Origin: Octopus vulgaris
Lineage: Eukaryota
Reading direction: 5' to 3'
Assembly (NCBI GenBank): GCA_951406725.2
Contig: OX597828.1
Location: forward strand, 65,844,001 to 65,908,000
DNA: 64,000 nucleotides
The notes under the pieces were generated by a model. The model saw only the letters and a program-made list of their open reading frames with translations. It searched no databases and had not been told where the DNA came from. The position numbers and the translations under genes were made by a program. Within the stretch, counting starts at the first letter, position 1, and each line of letters begins with the position of its first letter. Shown one piece after another: positions 4,508 through 52,098 of the stretch.

Positions 4508-5039
4508 ATACACATCGTCAGAGATAAATACACTTCCATTCTAATCAAATTTCTCCTTTTTGCATATTTGACAACAGAAAAAAAATACCATATGGTACAT
4601 GATAAATTACTGCATGGTGTGACCCTCAGCTAAAAGGTAGCGTGATATGTCTGCAATACTGGATCTGCTGATCATGTTATAGAACTTCTTAATCAAGTCT
4701 GGCTTGAGCAACATTAAAAAAAAAACAAGAAAAAAAACTATATAGCCTGTATATTGCTTCAGTAAAGAAAGCAACCCACAGTTAATCAATCCCTTCTTTT
4801 TAGTACCGAAAAATTCTTCCTCACTATCCTAATGAATCAATAGAACGTCTGACCAACTCGATATTAATTAAAAGACTTTCCGGTTATGTTGTATTTAAAA
4901 GAAATGCAGTAGTAGTTAGTAACAATAATATAAATGTATTTAATTTAATATGTATAAATATGAATTGTATGTCCAAATACACGTACACACACAGAGATAA
5001 TATATATACATAGATAAAGATTCTAGATAATTCGTAAAT

Positions 5040-9735: not shown

Positions 9736-10439
9736 AATAATGAATTGGATTTATTTCTGTTAAGTCAGCAACCAGTTACTACAGTGGCTTGAAAAACAAA
9801 TGAGATGGCTAAAGACAGCATTCCATATTCAAGAGCCAAAATTTCATTGTCTAAATGTATCAGTGCTGAAACTATACTTAGTGAACAAACAACACCATGT
9901 TCAGTGAATCAACAGCCTGGGCAACCTACTAATAATTCTTGTGTCAGTTCTCTTTAATAAATATCAAAATTTTGTAGATTTCCTCTTATCATTTATAGAA
10001 GAGACATCATACTAAGAGTTAAACAAGGAAGTTCGTGAAAAGATAATTTGTCAAGTTGGAGAGGGGGGGGCTTTTATGTTGCAGAATGCTATATCTATAG
10101 TTTGTGCAAAAGAGTCCACTACTAGTGTTATAGTCAGCATTACTATGACTATAATCCTTGCGTTTTTGATAGGAAATCAACTTCAGTTTAGGTTAAGGAT
10201 GCTTTTGATATGGATCAAGGACAGTACATGGTCGCACAGGATGTCCTGTTGATAAACAATGTATTGTCAGATGACTCAGCATTTTGCGAAGGAATCTTGA
10301 AAACTTATTGTATCAACAGTATCATTCCTTCAAATGCTTAAGTGGAAATTCCTTTTTGGTGCTGTAAATGATCAGTATCAGTGACAGTGACAGGAAATTA
10401 TTTTTGATTCATGAAGACATTATAGAAAAGCTAATATTA

Positions 10440-10764
10440 TGGAGATGTACTTGCATAACGAGTGACTTGATCTGAGATCGTGTGCTGGAACGAAAACAAT
10501 TGCAGTGTGGAAGCCATTTAAGAAACACACAAAAACCGTTAGATTCACTTCAACATTTAAATTTAATTTGTCAAAATATATTCGTCGCTTTGAGGCTGCG
10601 ACCTGTTCACTGACAAAACTTCATGCTGCATCTGACCGTAAACAGGTCGCGGTCTCAAAGCGACGAATATATTTTGACAAAATTAAATTTAAATGTTGAA
10701 GTGAATCTAATGGTTTTTGTGTGTTTCTTAAATGGCTTATAAACACCTTCCACGCTGCAATTGT
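10440..10764. mobile_element. Fold-back Penelope-like insertion, copy 1, with hammerhead-like motif in the arms
   Basis: Inverted arms ~10496-10608 and ~10640-10764. Flanking direct repeat ctaatatta (10431-10439, 10765-10773). Same family as 46058-46387. Confidence 0.7.
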
Positions 10765-11171
10765 CTAATATTAATTCATAGTCCTAAATCATGTTCAGAG
10801 GGTAGTATGGTCTATAACAGAAACAAGCTTAACTCAATTGAAAAGCAATTGTTAAAAAATTGAAGTAAACAATTGCCATGTTATAAATGGAGTTTTTGTG
10901 GTTTACGGAATCTCATTCTGCCACCTTGGGAGTTTTGGCATCACAATATTGATGACTTCAGATTAAATTTAAAACTAAATTTCCACCTTTTAACTGTTTC
11001 TTCTGCATGTGTTGATCCCTGATTTAATAACTTATTTGATAAACCTTCAAAATGTTGAATTTTCATTGACTGTAACACAGGTTCATCAAAATTACAACTG
11101 ATCAACTTATATTATGAACAAAACTTTGGCAGCAATTGTCATTAGAAGACCCAAACTAATTCATAAAACGG

Positions 11172-11401
11172 TGTAAAAGATTTGAGCGAGGTCGTTGCCA
11201 GTACCGCCTGATTGGCCCCGTGCCGGTGGCATGTAAAAGCCCCCACTCTCAGAGTGGTTGGCGTTAGGAAGGGCATCCAGCTGTAGAAACTCTGCAAGAT
11301 CAAGATTGAAGCCTGGTGCAGCCATCTGGTTCGCCAGCCCTCAGTCAAAATCGTCCAACCCATGCTAGCATGGAAAGCGGACGTTAAACGGTGATGATGA
11401 T
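11172..11401 (+). mobile_element. RTE-derived 3' end (family C) with (GAT)n tail
   Basis: ...gagtggttggcgttaggaagggcatccagctgtagaaac...ggacgttaaacggtgatgatga. Confidence 0.9.
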
Positions 11402-12214
11402 AAACATACAATTTACTGTGCTTGATTAATTTAAGCATTACTTTCAAATTTACATAAAGAAAAGTAACTTCTCAAAGTATCTTTCAATATATCTTATTCA
11501 CCTTGTGTGGTACTCCTTGCTCTATTTATAGTACAGTAACACTCAGTTTAAAATTCGTTGAATTTTTAGAATTTCCAAGAAAATGGAATGTTTGTGAAAG
11601 TCAAACTGCACCTTCAGAAGGACAAAATATTACAATGGAATGATATTACAATACAGATAAGATAAACAAGTGAATGAAAACCTCCACTTGCTTTAATGAG
11701 TAATAGATTGTCTTCTGTGGTTCAAAGATCACATATCATTCAACGCTGGAAAGATCAAATGACTCATCATTGAAAGAAATTGGTTAGTTGAGAAGTGGTT
11801 GGAATATTCGTTTACTGCCACAGTCTGTATCAAGTTGCAGTGGAGAGTCAGTTGTAATGAGCCACTGATCTTGTGCTCCTGAATCTAAGACTCAACCAAT
11901 ACATCTTGGATGTGTTCGTCTCTCACATTAGTAAATATAAATGATACATTCCTTGATGACAACATATTAATTCATCACTCCTGTATAATTGCAACAATCC
12001 TAACAGACCTCAAAATAACAAGATTGCTTGCCTATTTGAATAAATTATGTCCTAATGATAAACAGTAACTATTTCAGTTTTGTGATGTTTTATTGTTAAT
12101 TACTAGGTTTTATTTTATTAATGAATTATTAATTTTGGAAAATATCTTCTAAATGCTTCTTCTTCATGTTTTACGTATTGTAGAATTGCATGAGGACATG
12201 AGTACCATGCTCTT

Positions 12215-17126: not shown

Positions 17127-17357
17127 ATCATTAAAATTTTTTTTTTCAGAATGAGATAAAAATCCAAGGCTGGGAAAGATTTTAGTACATTTATAAATAG
17201 GTCTTACATCTGTTTCTGGGATATTTTAAATATCCCTTCACCTGGAGCTTAACTATGGTCTGTCCATAGCACTTACTCAGCATTACCTGACACCTTTGGG
17301 TCTTCGTGACACCATTACTTCTCATAACCTCTATATATTCATATTATATATGTGATT

Positions 17358-17737
17358 ACTGGCACTTGAGCCCCGTGCTAGTAGGGTATTAAAAGCACCA
17401 TCCGAGCGTGATCATTGCCAGAGCAGCTATCTGGCCTCTGTGCTGGTAGCACGTGAAAGACACCATTCAAGCGTGATCGTTACCAGCATCGCCTTACCGG
17501 CACCTGTGCCGGTGGCATGTGTAAAAGATTCGAGCATGGTCGTTGCTAGTACCGCCTGACTGGCCCCGTGCCTGTGGCATGTAAAAGCACCCACTACACT
17601 CTCGGAGTGGTTGGCGTTAGGAAGGCCATCCAGCCATAGAAACTGCCAGATCAAGATTGAAGCCTGGTTCGCCAGCCCTCAGTCATACGTGCAACCCATG
17701 CTAGCATGGAAAGCAGACGTTAAATGGTGATGATGAT
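17358..17737 (+). mobile_element. RTE family C 3' end with tandem units
   Basis: About 3-4 gtgcyrgtrgcac/aaaagcacc units, then the conserved tail and (GAT)n. Confidence 0.9.
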
Positions 17738-19108
17738 GTGTGTGTGTATAATTATATATACTAGCAGACTCACCACACTTCAGGCAGTTTTCTGCTAGTC
17801 ATAATGATACGCAAACATTGTGCAAGCCTAGGTGTTGTTAGGAAGTGCTTCCCTACCACATGATCTGATCCAGTCCTACTCCATGGCATCTTGGGTAGAG
17901 TCTTCTACTATAGTCCCAGGCCAACCAGAACCTTGTGAATGGATTTAACAGATGGAAAGAAGTCTGTTATGGGTATCTCCTCATCTTGACATCTCATGGT
18001 AGTTAGTTGTAAGCAGGTGTCACTGTCATACGAGTCGTATCATTTGCTTCCAGTCTTCCATGAAAACCTGTCCAGCAAAGAGGAAATATTATCTTACTTG
18101 GAAACAGGCGTGAGTTGGTGACCTTGGAAGGATTTCTGGCCATACAAAAATCTACCTCAGTAGAAAAGTGGACATTGGAAGGATGACATTTGTAGCCATG
18201 GCTCCAAATCAAGGATTGAACTTCACAATTATTTTAGAAATTGCTCCTCATACTCCTTCACAAGCGCTCTCCATGATGGGCAAATCTGAGAGGTACCCCC
18301 CACACACACACACACACTATGAGAGAGAGTGAGAGACATACACACACAAGTATAACTGGTTACAAAATGAACTTCTTAACTGTAGTTTTTGGATTCAGTC
18401 CCACTGCCTGATCTCGAGCCAGTGTCTTTTACTATAGCTTTGGGCCAACCAATGCTTTCTCGGTGCATACAAGAGACAGAAACAGAAAGAAGCTTATTAT
18501 ATATAGTGTGTGTGTTCATGTCTCCTTGTCTTGACATTGTGGACTATTTGTAAACAAGTATCGTCCTTCATTTACATTCTTCCAAGAAAACATTTTGCCT
18601 TCTTTCTGCTGCTTCTTTGAAGGACCAAGGAGGGTAATATTGGAAACAGATGATGGATGGCAACAGAAAGATCATCTGGCCACAGAAAATTTGTTTTGAC
18701 AAATTTTATCTGACCCATGCAGGCATGAAAAAGTAAAGGTTAAAACAATGATAATGATATATATATATATATGTATGTATGTGTGTGTATATATATATAT
18801 ATCATGTGACTGACCAGGCTATCAGATGTTGCTACACATCGTTGGTCACAATGCACTTCGCATTGTTTTATCCTTCAAATGACGCCACCCCGCTGGCTAA
18901 GAGTGAGAGAAAGTTGTGGCGAAAGAGTACAGCAGGGATCACCCCCCATCCTGCTGGAGCCTTGTGGAGCTTTAGGTGTTTTCGCTTAATAAACACTCAC
19001 AACGCCTGGTCTGAGAATTGAAACTGCAATCCTACAACTGTGAGTCTGCTGCCCTAACCATACATACATACATATATGTATGTATGTATGTATAATATAT
19101 ATTAGTTA

Positions 19109-28344: not shown

Positions 28345-28766
28345 GCTGGACTGATTCTTGTGCAGGTGGCAAGTAAAGAAACACCGTTTCGACCCTGTGC
28401 TTGAGATCTATTGAGTCAAGTACACCAACATCAAAAATCAATGGAAATTGTAGTTGTGATCCCTGTGCCGGTGGCACATAAAAAGCACCATCCAAATGTG
28501 GTTGATGCCAGCACCACCTTGACTGGCTTCCGTACCGGTGGTACGTAAAAAGCACCAACTGATTGTGGCCATGCCAGCCTCGCCTGGCACATAAAAAGCA
28601 CCCACTACACTCACGGAGTAGTTGGTGTTTGGAAGGGCATCCATCTGTAGAAACACTGCCAGATCAAGATTGGAGCCTGGTGCAGCCTTCTGGCTTCCCA
28701 AATCCCGGTTGACCTGTCCAACCCATGCTAGCATGGAAAACAGACGTTAAACAATGATGATGATGA
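28345..28766 (+). mobile_element. RTE family C 3' end with tandem units
   Basis: Units at ~28362, ~28464 and ~28531, then the tail and (GAT)n. Confidence 0.9.
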
Positions 28767-29276
28767 TTTCAAATAGTGTGTTTTGAAAATTTATTTTTGT
28801 TGTACTTCATGTCAAGATTCTGTGAAATGTTCTTTAGGGTACAAATAAAACTCCCCCTCCCCCTGAGTTATGGACCCACCCTAATTCTATCCTTTTTGTA
28901 TTGCATTTTCCTTGCAAAAGGTTTACAGTGAGATTGTTGACTGATACATCTGCTGATTCAGTCTATTATTTCGACTGGATAATTTTGATGTAAAGTGCCA
29001 GAAAGTTTCAGCACACTTCTTAACCTGCTCTTTGACACAATCTTGATTTGAATTTCCTGTTATTTTATCGACTAGATCTAGTTCTACTTTGAAAGGCTTT
29101 TCATCTCTTTAAAATACTTGTAGACTGCTGAGCAATATTACATGTAAGCATACTTATTTCATTTATGTGTGTGTAAAATGTATACATTTATAAACATGCA
29201 TAAATGTGTATGTGTAGATATATGGTTAAATGTGTGTGTATGTGCCTATATGTGTGTGTATTATCGGTGTGTATTT

Positions 29277-44838: not shown

Positions 44839-46057
44839 TAATATTTAACTTGATTTGAGATCATAGTTTGAGTGCTTTCATTCAGCATCTCTTAGAAAAG
44901 AGCAAAATACTTGTAAAATTTTCAAATATTTAAACTCAGTTGATGAAATTTGTTTTCACCTTGTAGATAAAGTTTTCAGTTATGTTTAAGGTAAAAAAAA
45001 AAAAAAAAAGAGAGAGGTGTTTTTTACAATGTAAACAAATTTTTAGCAAAGAAAGATAATATGGCACAAGTATATGTTGTCAGGAAACAGGAGTTAAGAG
45101 ATAACTGAAATTTGAACAGGTCAGCATGATCGGTTAGATGAAGGTCAAGGAGAAGCACTCAGTCAATCTAAATAAACATTTTCATTTTGTCTTTTCAAGT
45201 GCCACCTACATGCTACTATATATGTTAGTAGGGATGGTTTTCCCCCAGTAGATGCTTGTAGTTGCTGAGATGGGGGAAAAACACTCAGAATAGAATAAGA
45301 GACGATTGTTTATTAGAGTGACTGGTTTGTTTTGTTTTGTATTTTTGTGGGTGGTGGAAGTGAAAATGTGGGACATGGACACATGTTTCATCATCATATA
45401 TTTTAGGGGAAAATGTTACTCTCTTTAGTAAGGATCAGAGGAAGAGTATAGGGTTTCAAGATCATAGTGAATTTAAACCTGCAGTTTCTATTTTTTCATT
45501 TAATTGCTCAGAAAGAAATTAGTTGAGAGGTATTACTATTTCTTATTTCTTAAAACTTATTAGGAATTTGATTTAGATTACATGTATATTGAGCTCAATT
45601 TTGAAATGAATTTTAAGGTCTTTTCAGAAAATGAGACGGTTGATCCCTTAGTTACTTCTGGCTTGAAAATGCTTGGTTTGTTCTTTTATAATATTAGAGA
45701 GAAGTTTCAAGCAATAATAGCAGTTGAGATAAATATCCAATGAAAATATCTCTTAATGCCAATTTACCCCAAGATCATATATCAACTCAGCTTGCTATAT
45801 ATAAATGCTTGTTTCTGTTTTGTATTCCATTACGTATCTTAATATATTCGAGCCCTCTTCAGTCCTGAAATGGAATATCATGTTAAGTGGTCTATCCCAT
45901 AACTAAGCCCCTCTTGTTATTTTTCGTCTCCTAAAGGTATATCAATCTATTAATATGTAGTGTACTACAGCATGTCATTTGTTGACTGAGTTCTCCTTTA
46001 GTACTCTCTGTTCCTCTTGAAGCAAGTGTTTCATTTTTCGTAAAGAAATTTTATCTT

Positions 46058-46387
46058 TACGGAGATGTACTTGCATAGCGAGTGACTTGATCTGAGATCG
46101 TGTGCTGGAATGAAAGCAATTGCAACGTGGAAGGTGTTTATAAGCCATTTAAGAAACACACAAAAACCGTTAAATTCACTTCGACATTTAAATTTAATTT
46201 GTCAAAATATTTTCGCTTTGAGATCTCGACCTGTCCACTGACAAAACTTCGTGCTGCATCAGTTTTGTCAGTGAATAGGTCGCGGTCTCAAAGCGACAAA
46301 AGTATTTTGACAAATTTAATTTAAATGTTGAAGTGAATCTAATGGTTTTGTGTGTTTCTTAAATGGCTTATAAACACCTTCCTTGCT
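46058..46387. mobile_element. Fold-back Penelope-like insertion, copy 2
   Basis: Inverted arms meet at ~46248-46261. 13 bp TSD gaaattttatctt (46045-46057, 46388-46400). Confidence 0.72.
46264..46314 (+). ncRNA. Decayed minimal type I hammerhead-like motif (family consensus has G3:C8)
   Basis: TTTGTCA-GTGAAtA-G-GTCGC-ggtctcaaa-GCGAC-aAAA-gTATTT-TGACAAA. Other arms supply C8 (10567-10617 minus), G12 and GAAA. Confidence 0.55.
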
Positions 46388-47095
46388 GAAATTTTATCTT
46401 ATCATCTAGCAACTCTCTTCCATAGTTTGACGTCTATAATACACACAATAGGTCACCCGTTGAGTCTGTTTATAATCTCACATTAACAATACATAGGATG
46501 GGTCAGTTATCTATCAACTTTGTAATTTCATATTAACCAGGATAGGCCCATAGTTGCTCACTTCAAACATTGAACTTTTGAATTCCATGTCATTGACACA
46601 TGTTAATTTCTATTCAGCTTCATAGAAAGCAAATTGACTCATGCTATTTACTTATCTATAAATTGTCCAACCCATGCCAGCATGGAAAAACGGATGTTAA
46701 ATGACAATGGTGATGATGTTATTGTACCTTTTAGCATTCAGATTATTTTATCAAATATAATCCTTATTCATTCACATTGTTTTGAATTAATCATGCATTA
46801 TCTCATAGCTTCGAGATTTTGATGATGTGATCATTTATTGTTTAGAATGACATTGTAGGGTAAGTGTGATAGGCTAGATCTGTCCAATTTCATCTTAAAA
46901 CTGGTAGAATATTTGAGCCAGTAATGGCCGGCTTAAATACTAAAAGGTTAATCATGTTTTCAACTTGAGAAATAAAAAGAAATGACAGGGGGTGGGGAGG
47001 CTTTTGAAACTGTCATTTGTTAATGAAATTGTTATATGAATCACGTGGTTTTTTGTGATTTTTTTTTTAATTATAATACTTTCTTGTCTTTACAG

Positions 47096-51339: not shown

Positions 51340-51905
51340 CTTTGGACACTAAACTCTGCTTGCGAAGACCTGTTGAAGCAAGTGAAATCAAAATCAAAGT
51401 AAAATTCGATGACAGGCACGAGCACCATACGAGCGTGATCGTTGACAGAGCGGCTAACCAGCTTCCGTGCCAGTGGCACATAAAAGGCACCATTCGAGTG
51501 TGATCGTTACCAGCTTCGCTTTACTGGCACTTGTGCCCCATGCTAGTAGGGTGCTAAGACCACCATCCAATCGTGATTGTTGCCAGAGCAGCTGACTGGC
51601 TTCTGTGCCGGTGGCATGTAAGAGGCACCATTCGAGCGGGATCGTTACCAGCATCGCCTTACTGGCACCTGTAAAAAGATTCAAGCGAGGTCGTTGCCAG
51701 TACAGCCTGACTGGCCCCCATGCCGGTGGCACGTAAAAAGCACCCACTACACTCTCAGAGTGGTTGGCGTTAGGAATGGCATCCAGCTGTAGAAACTCTG
51801 CCAGATCAAGATTGAAGCTTGGTGCAGCCATCTGGTTTGCCAGCCCTCAGTCAAACAGTCCAACCCATGCCAGCATAGAAAGAGGACGTTAAACAATGAT
51901 GATGA
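51340..51905 (+). mobile_element. RTE family C 3' UTR with unit array
   Basis: ttggacactaaactctgcttgcgaagacctgttga (as at 26868-26901), about 5 units, tail and (GAT)n. Confidence 0.9.
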
Positions 51906-52098
51906 TTGAGTGAGTATTAAAATAAAAGTTGTTTTATATAAATCATCAGAAAATAACTGGATTAAGGTTTTTTCCTGTTCTATATTCTTCCCTACATGTT
52001 AGCATATCAGTTTTATGTAACACCTATTATAAAGTGCTCTCTTTTACCTTTTATATTAATTAAAATCTGTATTAATTACTGTTTCATTACTTTTCTAG

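What the first reader, a model, noticed from the sequence alone, without database searches (positions are those of the whole stretch)
10440..10764. Fold-back Penelope-like element carrying a hammerhead ribozyme with the core pair swapped to G3:C8
Seen: reading outward from the palindrome centre, the four arms of the two copies (10440-10764, 46058-46387) give the consensus TTTGTCA-GTGAACA-G-GTCGC-ggtctcaaa-GCGAC-GAA-AATATT-T-TGACAAA. This parses as stem I (TTTGTCA/TGACAAA), a 7-nt core, stem II (GTCGC/GCGAC), GAAA, a palindromic mini stem III (AATATT) and a UUU cleavage triplet. Established: this is the topology of minimal type I hammerheads of Penelope-like elements. C3 and G8 of the CUGANGA box form a tertiary Watson-Crick pair that tolerates compensatory swaps. 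Inference: GUGAACA is that double swap, so this would be a natural G3:C8 hammerhead family missed by CUGANGA motif scans. Every arm here has at least one core lesion (both arms of copy 1 share GAAT), so these copies are probably inactive.
Basis: partly seen in the sequence, partly recalled or inferred. Interest (0 to 1): 0.85.

Follow-up and report, generated by a model that had tools for sequence, protein, structure and literature searches.

The report
Octopus retrotransposon hammerhead with swapped core
Two damaged copies in this window belong to a family of thousands of jumping-gene ends in an octopus genome that carry a hammerhead-shaped RNA motif with two paired core letters swapped (C-G to G-C), likely a still-working self-cutting RNA that standard pattern searches would miss, although cutting is untested.

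Summary
Observation confirmed. Both fold-back copies are 5'-truncated terminal repeats (pLTR) of a Penelope-like retrotransposon (RT plus C-terminal GIY-YIG), with 9- and 13-bp target-site duplications, a one-sided ~57-nt tail, and the first ~30 codons of the element's ORF. The family has 7,373 matches to the 5' half of the motif; 95 of the first 100 have G3:C8 and none C3:G8; 464 copies match the intact 45-mer exactly. Its sister family (tree support 100/100) has a canonical CUGAUGA hammerhead at the same place, and 10 metagenomic relatives have C3:G8 (6) or U3:A8 (4). A covariance model built without any G3:C8 sequence finds the motif. So it is a hammerhead by descent with a natural G3:C8 swap. 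All four window arms are damaged. Self-cleavage is untested: 0 of 99 sampled arms start at the cut site, and a 2,811-copy sister subfamily fixed an A9C core change. Natural U3:A8 is published; I found G3:C8 only as an engineered, partly active mutant, but five key papers were unreadable. The scan noted G3:C8 before in phages and in two doubtful Penelope-type candidates. New variant of a known kind.

The parts
10431..10439 (+). left target-site duplication of copy 1 (9 bp)
10440..10633 (-). copy 1, long arm: pLTR end from the family's fixed 5' boundary to the long 3' end (with the ~57-nt tail); 11-nt deletion shifts the ORF start out of frame
10567..10617 (-). hammerhead motif, G3 at 10610 and C8 at 10605; lesion A15.1 to U at 10580
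10638..10764 (+). copy 1, short arm (no tail); hammerhead remnant 10638-10681 with G5A, U15.1 and no 5' strand of stem I; ORF ATG at 10732
10765..10773 (+). right target-site duplication of copy 1
46045..46057 (+). left target-site duplication of copy 2 (13 bp)
46058..46260 (-). copy 2, long arm with tail; hammerhead remnant 46198-46245 (A6G, 3-nt deletion in stem II)
46059..46148 (-). first 30 codons of the Penelope ORF (ATG at 46148), the same N-terminus that continues into the full ORF in L161
46261..46387 (+). copy 2, short arm (no tail); hammerhead remnant 46264-46314 with G3 at 46271, C8U, G12A, A15.2G; best hit in the window of the covariance model built without G3:C8 sequences (E 0.038)
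46388..46400 (+). right target-site duplication of copy 2

Best explanation
The two copies are dead, inverted insertions of the terminal repeat of a Penelope-like retrotransposon, and that repeat carries a minimal type I hammerhead motif, descended from a canonical one, with the core pair C3:G8 swapped to G3:C8, which likely still self-cleaves slowly as a dimer. Shown: element identity, motif homology, the swap, covariation. Inferred mechanism: RNA from the pLTR carries the motif in its 5' leader, about 90 nt before the ORF start. Stems I and II fold locally; the palindromic AAUAUU of two molecules (or of two pLTRs of a tandem transcript) would form stem III; G8's catalytic 2'-OH role would be taken by C8 held by G3; cleavage would follow U17, probably helped by the element's protein. 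Insertion mostly uses uncut RNA: reverse transcription starts at two sites inside the ORF (the two 3' ends) and runs to a fixed point about 60 nt upstream of the cut site, often twice at one target, giving the fold-back. A transcript through a fold-back copy would pair arm with arm and could not fold the ribozyme.
For: PLE link. Tail and two 3' ends: 33 of 99 arms end at 147-153 and 62 of 99 at 203-208, as described for Poseidon (PMC11167929). Homology: sister family in the same genome, 58% identical protein, 100/100 in the tree, 38% over the N-terminal 124 aa, has C3:G8 at the same place; 798 matches to its A9 form, 89 of the first 100 listed reading canonical CUGAUGA. Relatives: 10 distinct hammerheads behind the ORF in 28 inspected of 54 metagenomic loci, 6 C3:G8 and 4 U3:A8. 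Pair 3:8 over 15 distinct rows: CG 7, UA 5, GC 2, UG 1; 0 of 500 shuffles reach the covariation score; whole structure 93.8% paired against 25-48% when slid. Model R1, built from 10 non-G3:C8 motifs with 3 and 8 left unpaired, finds intact copies at E 0.011 and 0.019. Subfamily-level differences: 0 of 12 core, 1 of 21 stem (U-A to U.G), 2 of 8 loop II, 8 of 49 flank positions. An older decayed subfamily also has G3:C8 with another loop II and a shorter palindrome. Fold: stems I and II at probability 0.9-1.0 in the autonomous leader; z -2.4 and -3.7. Engineered C3G/G8C partly rescues a Penelope hammerhead (PMC11167929).
Against: No cleavage data. 0 of 99 sampled arms begin at the predicted cleavage product (position 61), 3 within 59-65, while 50 begin at 1-7, so cut RNA leaves no trace in insertions. 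The young sister subfamily (2,811 exact matches; 52 of 52 motifs) and L195 have C at position 9, so core constraint in this clade is not absolute. G3 can pair with U17 and extend stem I (1.3 kcal/mol, probability about 0.66), a predicted inactive trap. The AAUAUU duplex alone is weak (-0.2 kcal/mol against -4.6 to -4.8 for two other palindromes). In the full 208-nt short copy L008 an alternative hairpin lowers stem I to 0.28. The two GC rows in the pair count are one lineage, so the swap is one event. Minimal Penelope hammerheads cleave poorly in vitro even when canonical (PMC4209133).
Confidence: 0.62

Rival explanations
1. The motif is a hammerhead by descent but no longer cuts at a useful rate; its fold is kept as a structural or protein-binding element of the 5' leader (for translation, packaging or template choice).
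For: Insertions come from uncut RNA. The sister subfamily spread with A9C. Hammerhead mutants did not affect insertion in vitro, and no RNA-seq reads ended at the cut site, for Poseidon (PMC11167929). G3.U17 trap and weak palindrome.
Against: A purely structural role would not need the tertiary 3:8 pair or the single-stranded U4-G5-A6, A9 and G12-A13-A14, which are unchanged across young and old subfamilies and across relatives of 29-46% protein identity.
Confidence: 0.28
2. The motif is a decaying relic: two neutral substitutions were fixed in a master element after the ribozyme became dispensable, and they are complementary by luck.
For: Some Penelope clades prosper without canonical hammerheads (PMC8557442). 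One master lineage can fix anything; the swap is a single event in the tree.
Against: Of 11 core positions exactly the two paired ones changed, to a complementary pair (roughly 1/55 x 1/3 by a simple count, my arithmetic). Stems I and II turned over with pairing kept, and the palindrome changed length but stayed palindromic between subfamilies.
Confidence: 0.08
3. The resemblance to a hammerhead is chance, or the element is not Penelope-like (for example a MITE or Helitron-type element with inverted ends).
For: Rfam gives no hammerhead hit. The window copies look like foldback DNA elements.
Against: Rfam also misses the canonical relatives L194, L196 and L210. Shuffle controls 0. Link to RT/GIY-YIG in 29 of 30 loci. 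Variable 9-13 bp duplications and one-sided tail.
Confidence: 0.02

Closest known systems
Minimal type I hammerheads (min-HHR) of metazoan Penelope-like elements (Cervera and de la Pena 2014, PMC4209133)
   Same: In the pLTR; type I; extra nucleotide between 9 and 10.1; G10.1-C11.1; palindromic stem III that needs a dimer; U17 is common in their alignment.
   Different: G3:C8 instead of C3:G8; the rows I saw in their Fig. S3 all begin CUGA or UUGA. The extra nucleotide is G, where their consensus has H.
Natural U3:A8 hammerheads (Perreault et al. 2011, PMC3088659; Schistosoma Cercyon elements, PMC4209133)
   Same: Natural compensatory change of the 3:8 tertiary pair; also present in 4 relatives here and in a Neptune-type family of this genome.
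   Different: U3:A8 keeps pyrimidine 3 and purine 8 (two transitions). G3:C8 reverses them (two transversions) and puts a pyrimidine at the general-acid position.
Engineered C3G/G8C double mutants (PMC11167929 for the Anolis Poseidon hammerhead; PMC8495972 review; PMC3884650)
   Same: Same core; partial rescue of cleavage reported.
   Different: Laboratory mutants in a C17 or other background. PMC3884650 notes (data not shown there) that G3-C8 works better with G17 than with C17; the natural family has U17, which weakens the predicted G3:N17 mispair from 3.5 to 1.3 kcal/mol.
C-terminal-endonuclease Penelope-like elements, Nematis/Neptune type (Craig et al. 2021, PMC8557442)
   Same: RT then GIY-YIG with CCHH, Cys-rich linker, pLTRs, inverted 5'-truncated copy, one-sided tail, (TA)n-rich targets.
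   Different: The short spacer after the linker CxxC resembles Nematis rather than Neptune, but the motif before the RT reads DKS; clade not tested with reference sequences. Tail about 57 nt rather than 30-40.

Membership tests
Penelope-like element (EN+) | single ORF with RT and GIY-YIG endonuclease | tested here: met
   1025-aa open frame with YVDD in L155; Pfam GIY-YIG 888-978, E 1.6e-5; Pfam gave no RT hit at E 0.1, the RT call rests on motifs and on homologues named RT-domain proteins
Penelope-like element (EN+) | pLTRs from partial tandems, ORF start inside the pLTR | tested here: met
   L161 and L168 have the motif on both sides of the ORF; ATG at element position 110 runs into the ORF
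Penelope-like element (EN+) | inverted 5'-truncated copy and one-sided tail | tested here: met
   both window copies; bimodal 3' ends in 95 of 99 arms
Naiad/Chlamys clade | N-terminal endonuclease | tested here: not met
   endonuclease is C-terminal
Nematis clade | RT phylogeny with Nematis references; short Cys linker | tested here: inconclusive
   linker spacing matches by eye; no tree with named references
Hammerhead ribozyme, minimal type I | core U4 G5 A6, A9, G12 A13 A14, A15.1:U16.1, H17 | tested here: met
   family majority; 41 of 61 arms fully intact; not met in the four window arms
Hammerhead ribozyme, minimal type I | Watson-Crick pair between 3 and 8 | tested here: met
   G3:C8 in 95 of first 100 listed; covariation across relatives
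Hammerhead ribozyme, minimal type I | literal CUGANGA box | tested here: not met
   GUGAACA; 0 of first 100 listed have C3:G8. This is the variant feature
Hammerhead ribozyme, minimal type I | stems I and II, G10.1:C11.1, extra nucleotide 9b, palindromic 15.1-16.1 | tested here: met
Hammerhead ribozyme, minimal type I | site-specific self-cleavage (as dimer) | not testable with these tools
   no assay; contigs cannot show RNA ends
Rfam hammerhead families | score against Rfam 15 models | tested here: not met
   no hammerhead hit at E 5-10 for the window, L008 or L155, nor for canonical relatives, so uninformative
Non-LTR retrozyme | head-to-tail tandem of short hammerhead monomers | tested here: not met
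   copies seen are single or inverted pLTR ends of a coding element; rare direct pairs exist (one 306 bp apart) and were not examined

The most novel reading that the evidence does not exclude
This is the first well-supported natural G3:C8 hammerhead family in an animal: an active, dimer- and protein-assisted self-cleaving RNA fixed in thousands of copies and kept through several waves of amplification, in a Penelope clade where three of the four Watson-Crick pairs occur at 3:8. The U17 background may have opened the path by weakening the G3:N17 mispair. Pattern-based surveys would then undercount hammerheads, and some Penelope families called 'hammerhead-less' may carry swapped cores.
Probability: 0.4. 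Interest if true: 0.66.

Novelty: new variant of a known kind. Interest (0 to 1): 0.5.

Why it matters
It gives natural, phylogenetically polarised support for the C3-G8 tertiary pair in its hardest form (purine-pyrimidine reversal at the general-acid nucleotide). It also supplies matched natural test material from one genome: canonical C3:G8:A9, C3:G8:C9, U3:A8 and G3:C8 hammerheads, all in abundant Penelope families. Comparing their cleavage rates would address the open question of whether Penelope hammerheads need to cut. It shows that CUGANGA descriptors miss a family with more than 7,000 motif halves.

Tried and rejected
Naiad idea (a swapped core might explain 'hammerhead-less' Naiads): rejected for this family, the endonuclease is C-terminal. 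First GIY-YIG family search returned other Penelope families; only L089 held a piece of the element, apparently by adjacency. Rfam: no hammerhead hit, also none for canonical relatives. IMG/VR: no relative by protein or motif. Search for further G3:C8 families with an ACNNGT stem III: 17 matches against 23 for the reversed control, i.e. chance level, though one match (L338) led to the older subfamily. Other palindromes were not searched. Expression: no RNA holder listed; only contigs could be laid, which show no ends. A shared first exon upstream of the fixed 5' boundary was not found: 54 of 58 arms stop there, 29 with AG, and flanks are unrelated; start site versus splice acceptor is unresolved, and the excess of G at -1 (13 of 29) is partly explained by fold-back microhomology. 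MAFFT alignments A3 and A4 each misaligned one row (L193, L200); model R1 was built on A3 with that noise, and in A5 the 3' half of L193 and the decayed L226 remain doubtful. In one search one of 23 rows (L359) was read on the wrong strand and only adds noise; the core in those 23 was selected by the pattern. Literature: searches found no natural G3:C8 report; Lunse 2017, Hammann 2012, Seehafer 2011, Przybilski and Hammann 2007 and Martick and Scott 2006 were not held, and supplementary file 1 of PMC4209133 could not be searched, so priority is not established.

Full report
Setting. The window lies on contig C15 of a 2.8-Gb animal genome. A protein that its source names as Octopus vulgaris matches this genome at 100%, so I treat the host as an octopus.

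Observation. Each is flanked by a direct duplication, 9 bp (10431-10439, 10765-10773) and 13 bp (46045-46057, 46388-46400). In each, one arm is about 57 nt longer at the outer end. All four arms carry core lesions as stated (sequence). The intact form is common elsewhere: 464 exact matches of the 45-mer, 0 for the reversed control. A pattern with positions 3, 7, 8 and 9 left free gave 7,373 matches; of the first 100 listed, 95 have G3:C8, 5 have one of the two changed, none has C3:G8. A 23-nt tag from the 3' part gave 5,818 matches; I fetched the first 100 places and recovered 99 distinct arms, unselected for the motif. Of the 61 that span the motif, 56 have G3:C8 and 41 have the whole core intact. 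A descriptor with any Watson-Crick pair at 3:8 never fired in 38.4 Mnt of shuffled window or in 20,000 shuffles of the element.

What the element is. Copies extended at the 5' side (524 matches) lead through about 1 kb of microsatellite-rich sequence to an ORF ending in a GIY-YIG domain. With that region as query, 29 of 30 fetched loci carry the element in sense about 1 kb behind the stop. [quoted passage not shown] L161 has the element on both sides of the ORF, and there the element's last 100 nt are the first codons of the ORF; the long arm of window copy 2 encodes the same 30 residues. The 3' ends of the 99 arms fall at 147-153 (33) and 203-208 (62). This matches the Penelope 'tail', which PMC11167929 (part 1 of 4 and passages) explains by two reverse-transcription starts inside the ORF, and the inverted truncated copy described in PMC8557442 (passages). 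The window copies are therefore ordinary dead pLTR insertions. The endonuclease linker looks Nematis-like (supplement passages); the clade was not tested with references.

Is the motif a hammerhead? PMC4209133 (parts 1-2 of 4; supplement file 2 passages and part 2) defines Penelope minimal hammerheads by an extra nucleotide between 9 and 10.1, G10.1-C11.1 and a palindromic stem III. All are present. Descent: the closest family in the same genome (58% identical over the matched RT-EN region; 38% over the N-terminal 124 aa, E 6e-32; sister at 100/100 in a 13-row tree) has, at the same place before its ORF start, a motif with C3:G8 and nearly the same stem II with a compensated pair. One of its subfamilies reads canonical CUGAUGA (798 matches, 89 of the first 100 listed), the younger one has C at 9 (2,811 matches). 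Of 54 metagenomic relatives I inspected 28: 10 distinct ones have a hammerhead behind the ORF, 6 found by the descriptor and 4 by eye, 6 with C3:G8 and 4 with U3:A8, none with G3:C8; the rest were cut short, decayed or showed none. A covariance model from 10 non-G3:C8 motifs, with 3 and 8 unpaired, finds the intact G3:C8 motif at E 0.011 and 0.019, two held-out motifs at 0.0008 and 0.006, and ranks copy 2's right arm first in the window (E 0.038); these E-values are rough. On the fitted alignment (15 distinct rows) 93.8% of cells pair against 25-48% when partners are slid, and pair 3:8 reads CG 7, UA 5, GC 2, UG 1. That alignment leans to the structure, the rows are related, two rows are doubtful, and the two GC rows are one lineage. 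Within the family, subfamily-level differences avoid the core: 0 of 12 core, 1 of 21 stem (U-A to U.G), 2 of 8 loop, 8 of 49 flank positions (no significance test run). An older, decayed subfamily (23 matches) also has G3:C8, with the sister-like loop II and a 4-nt instead of 6-nt palindrome outside the searched pattern. Contigs of four runs, coded as four organisms, hold the family and list no other letter at 5% or more in the core. I put the claim 'hammerhead by descent with a natural G3:C8 swap' at about 0.95.

How it likely works. Inferred: the motif sits in the 5' leader of pLTR-driven RNA. Stems I and II fold with probability 0.9-1.0 in the autonomous leader at all four lengths tried. 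Stem III can form only between two motifs. Engineered C3G/G8C partly restores cleavage, also in a Penelope hammerhead that needs its protein to cut. PMC3884650 (passages) notes that G3-C8 does worse with C17; here N17 is U, which lowers the predicted G3:N17 mispair from 3.5 to 1.3 kcal/mol. U17 is frequent in the relatives and in published Penelope motifs, so the clade may have been open to the swap (inference). Against an important cutting role: none of 99 arms starts at the cleavage product while 50 start at positions 1-7, the same pattern of uncut template as reported for Poseidon; the sister spread with A9C; the AU-only palindrome is weak; and in one short copy an alternative hairpin competes. 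I give slow dimer cleavage 0.62, a non-cutting structural role 0.28, relic 0.08. A transcript through either window copy would form a long hairpin (-154 and -170 kcal/mol), so those copies would be inactive even without lesions.

Novelty. Natural U3:A8 is in print (PMC3088659, section 8; PMC4209133). Eight searches of the open library found G3:C8 only as a laboratory mutant. A 2026 repeat annotation of O. vulgaris does not mention ribozymes in its main text (PMC13282606). Five relevant papers could not be read, above all Lunse et al. 2017 on about 150,000 Penelope-linked variants (number recalled), so priority is open. Other papers seen only as passages or first part: PMC6765202, PMC2377424, PMC13725137, bioRxiv 10.64898/2026.07.22.740005 (part 1 of 5; its supplements are closed). 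Earlier notes of this scan report G3:C8 in phage hammerheads and in two doubtful Penelope-type candidates with an 8-nt core (unchecked here); nothing on this sequence or genome.

Verdict. Real, well supported, a new natural variant of a known ribozyme in a known kind of element; activity untested. Interest 0.5.

Noticed in passing
L168:48-103 and 4636-4691 (G000:C17:6331579-6336951): The young sister Penelope family (1312-aa open frames, 99% identical copies) has a hammerhead with A9 replaced by C and a non-palindromic stem III (2 bp with an AA loop); 2,811 exact matches, against 798 for the canonical A9 form. The metagenomic relative L195 has U3:A8 together with C9.
   Followed up: partly
L070:2200-2261, L068, L071, L079, L083-L085, L090: An abundant Neptune-type Penelope family (781-aa frames; clade label recalled) of the same genome has a U3:A8 hammerhead without the extra nucleotide, with an ACAUGU palindrome.
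   Followed up: partly
L193:4963-5021: A metagenomic relative appears to have U15.1:A16.1 in place of A15.1:U16.1, with a palindromic UAGCUA stem III.
   Followed up: no
L008:1563, 1582, 1602, 1611: A-to-G differences at four places reach 5-15% in one or both runs guessed to be RNA (X2, X11) and at most 0.13% in two large runs of unknown kind, and occur in 0-1 of about 90-99 genomic arms. This would fit A-to-I editing of fold-back transcripts, but the runs are contigs, RNA status is a guess and individuals differ: a weak hint only.
   Followed up: partly
element positions -25 to +8 (e.g. L101, L111, L161:5195-5227): The fixed 5' boundary of short copies coincides with a sequence that reads both as branch point, pyrimidine tract and AG (splice acceptor, as next to helix I in D. 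virilis Penelope) and as an initiator-like start site; unresolved.
   Followed up: partly
window 10580 and 10668: Both arms of copy 1 share the same A15.1-to-U change; it is also seen in 4 of 77 sampled arms, so it may come from one template RNA, from conversion between arms, or from a minor subfamily.
   Followed up: no
window, many places (e.g. 11244-11404, 17356-17740, 28594-28767, 51383-51909): A very abundant SINE-like repeat family ending in (ATG)n, 10 or more copies on both strands.
   Followed up: no
L364 (G000:C2:139081077-139084104): An old sister-family copy with endonuclease remnant has G3 with G8 and A9 and the loop II of the old G3:C8 subfamily; probably a post-insertion mutation, but it links the two lineages at DNA level.
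   Followed up: no
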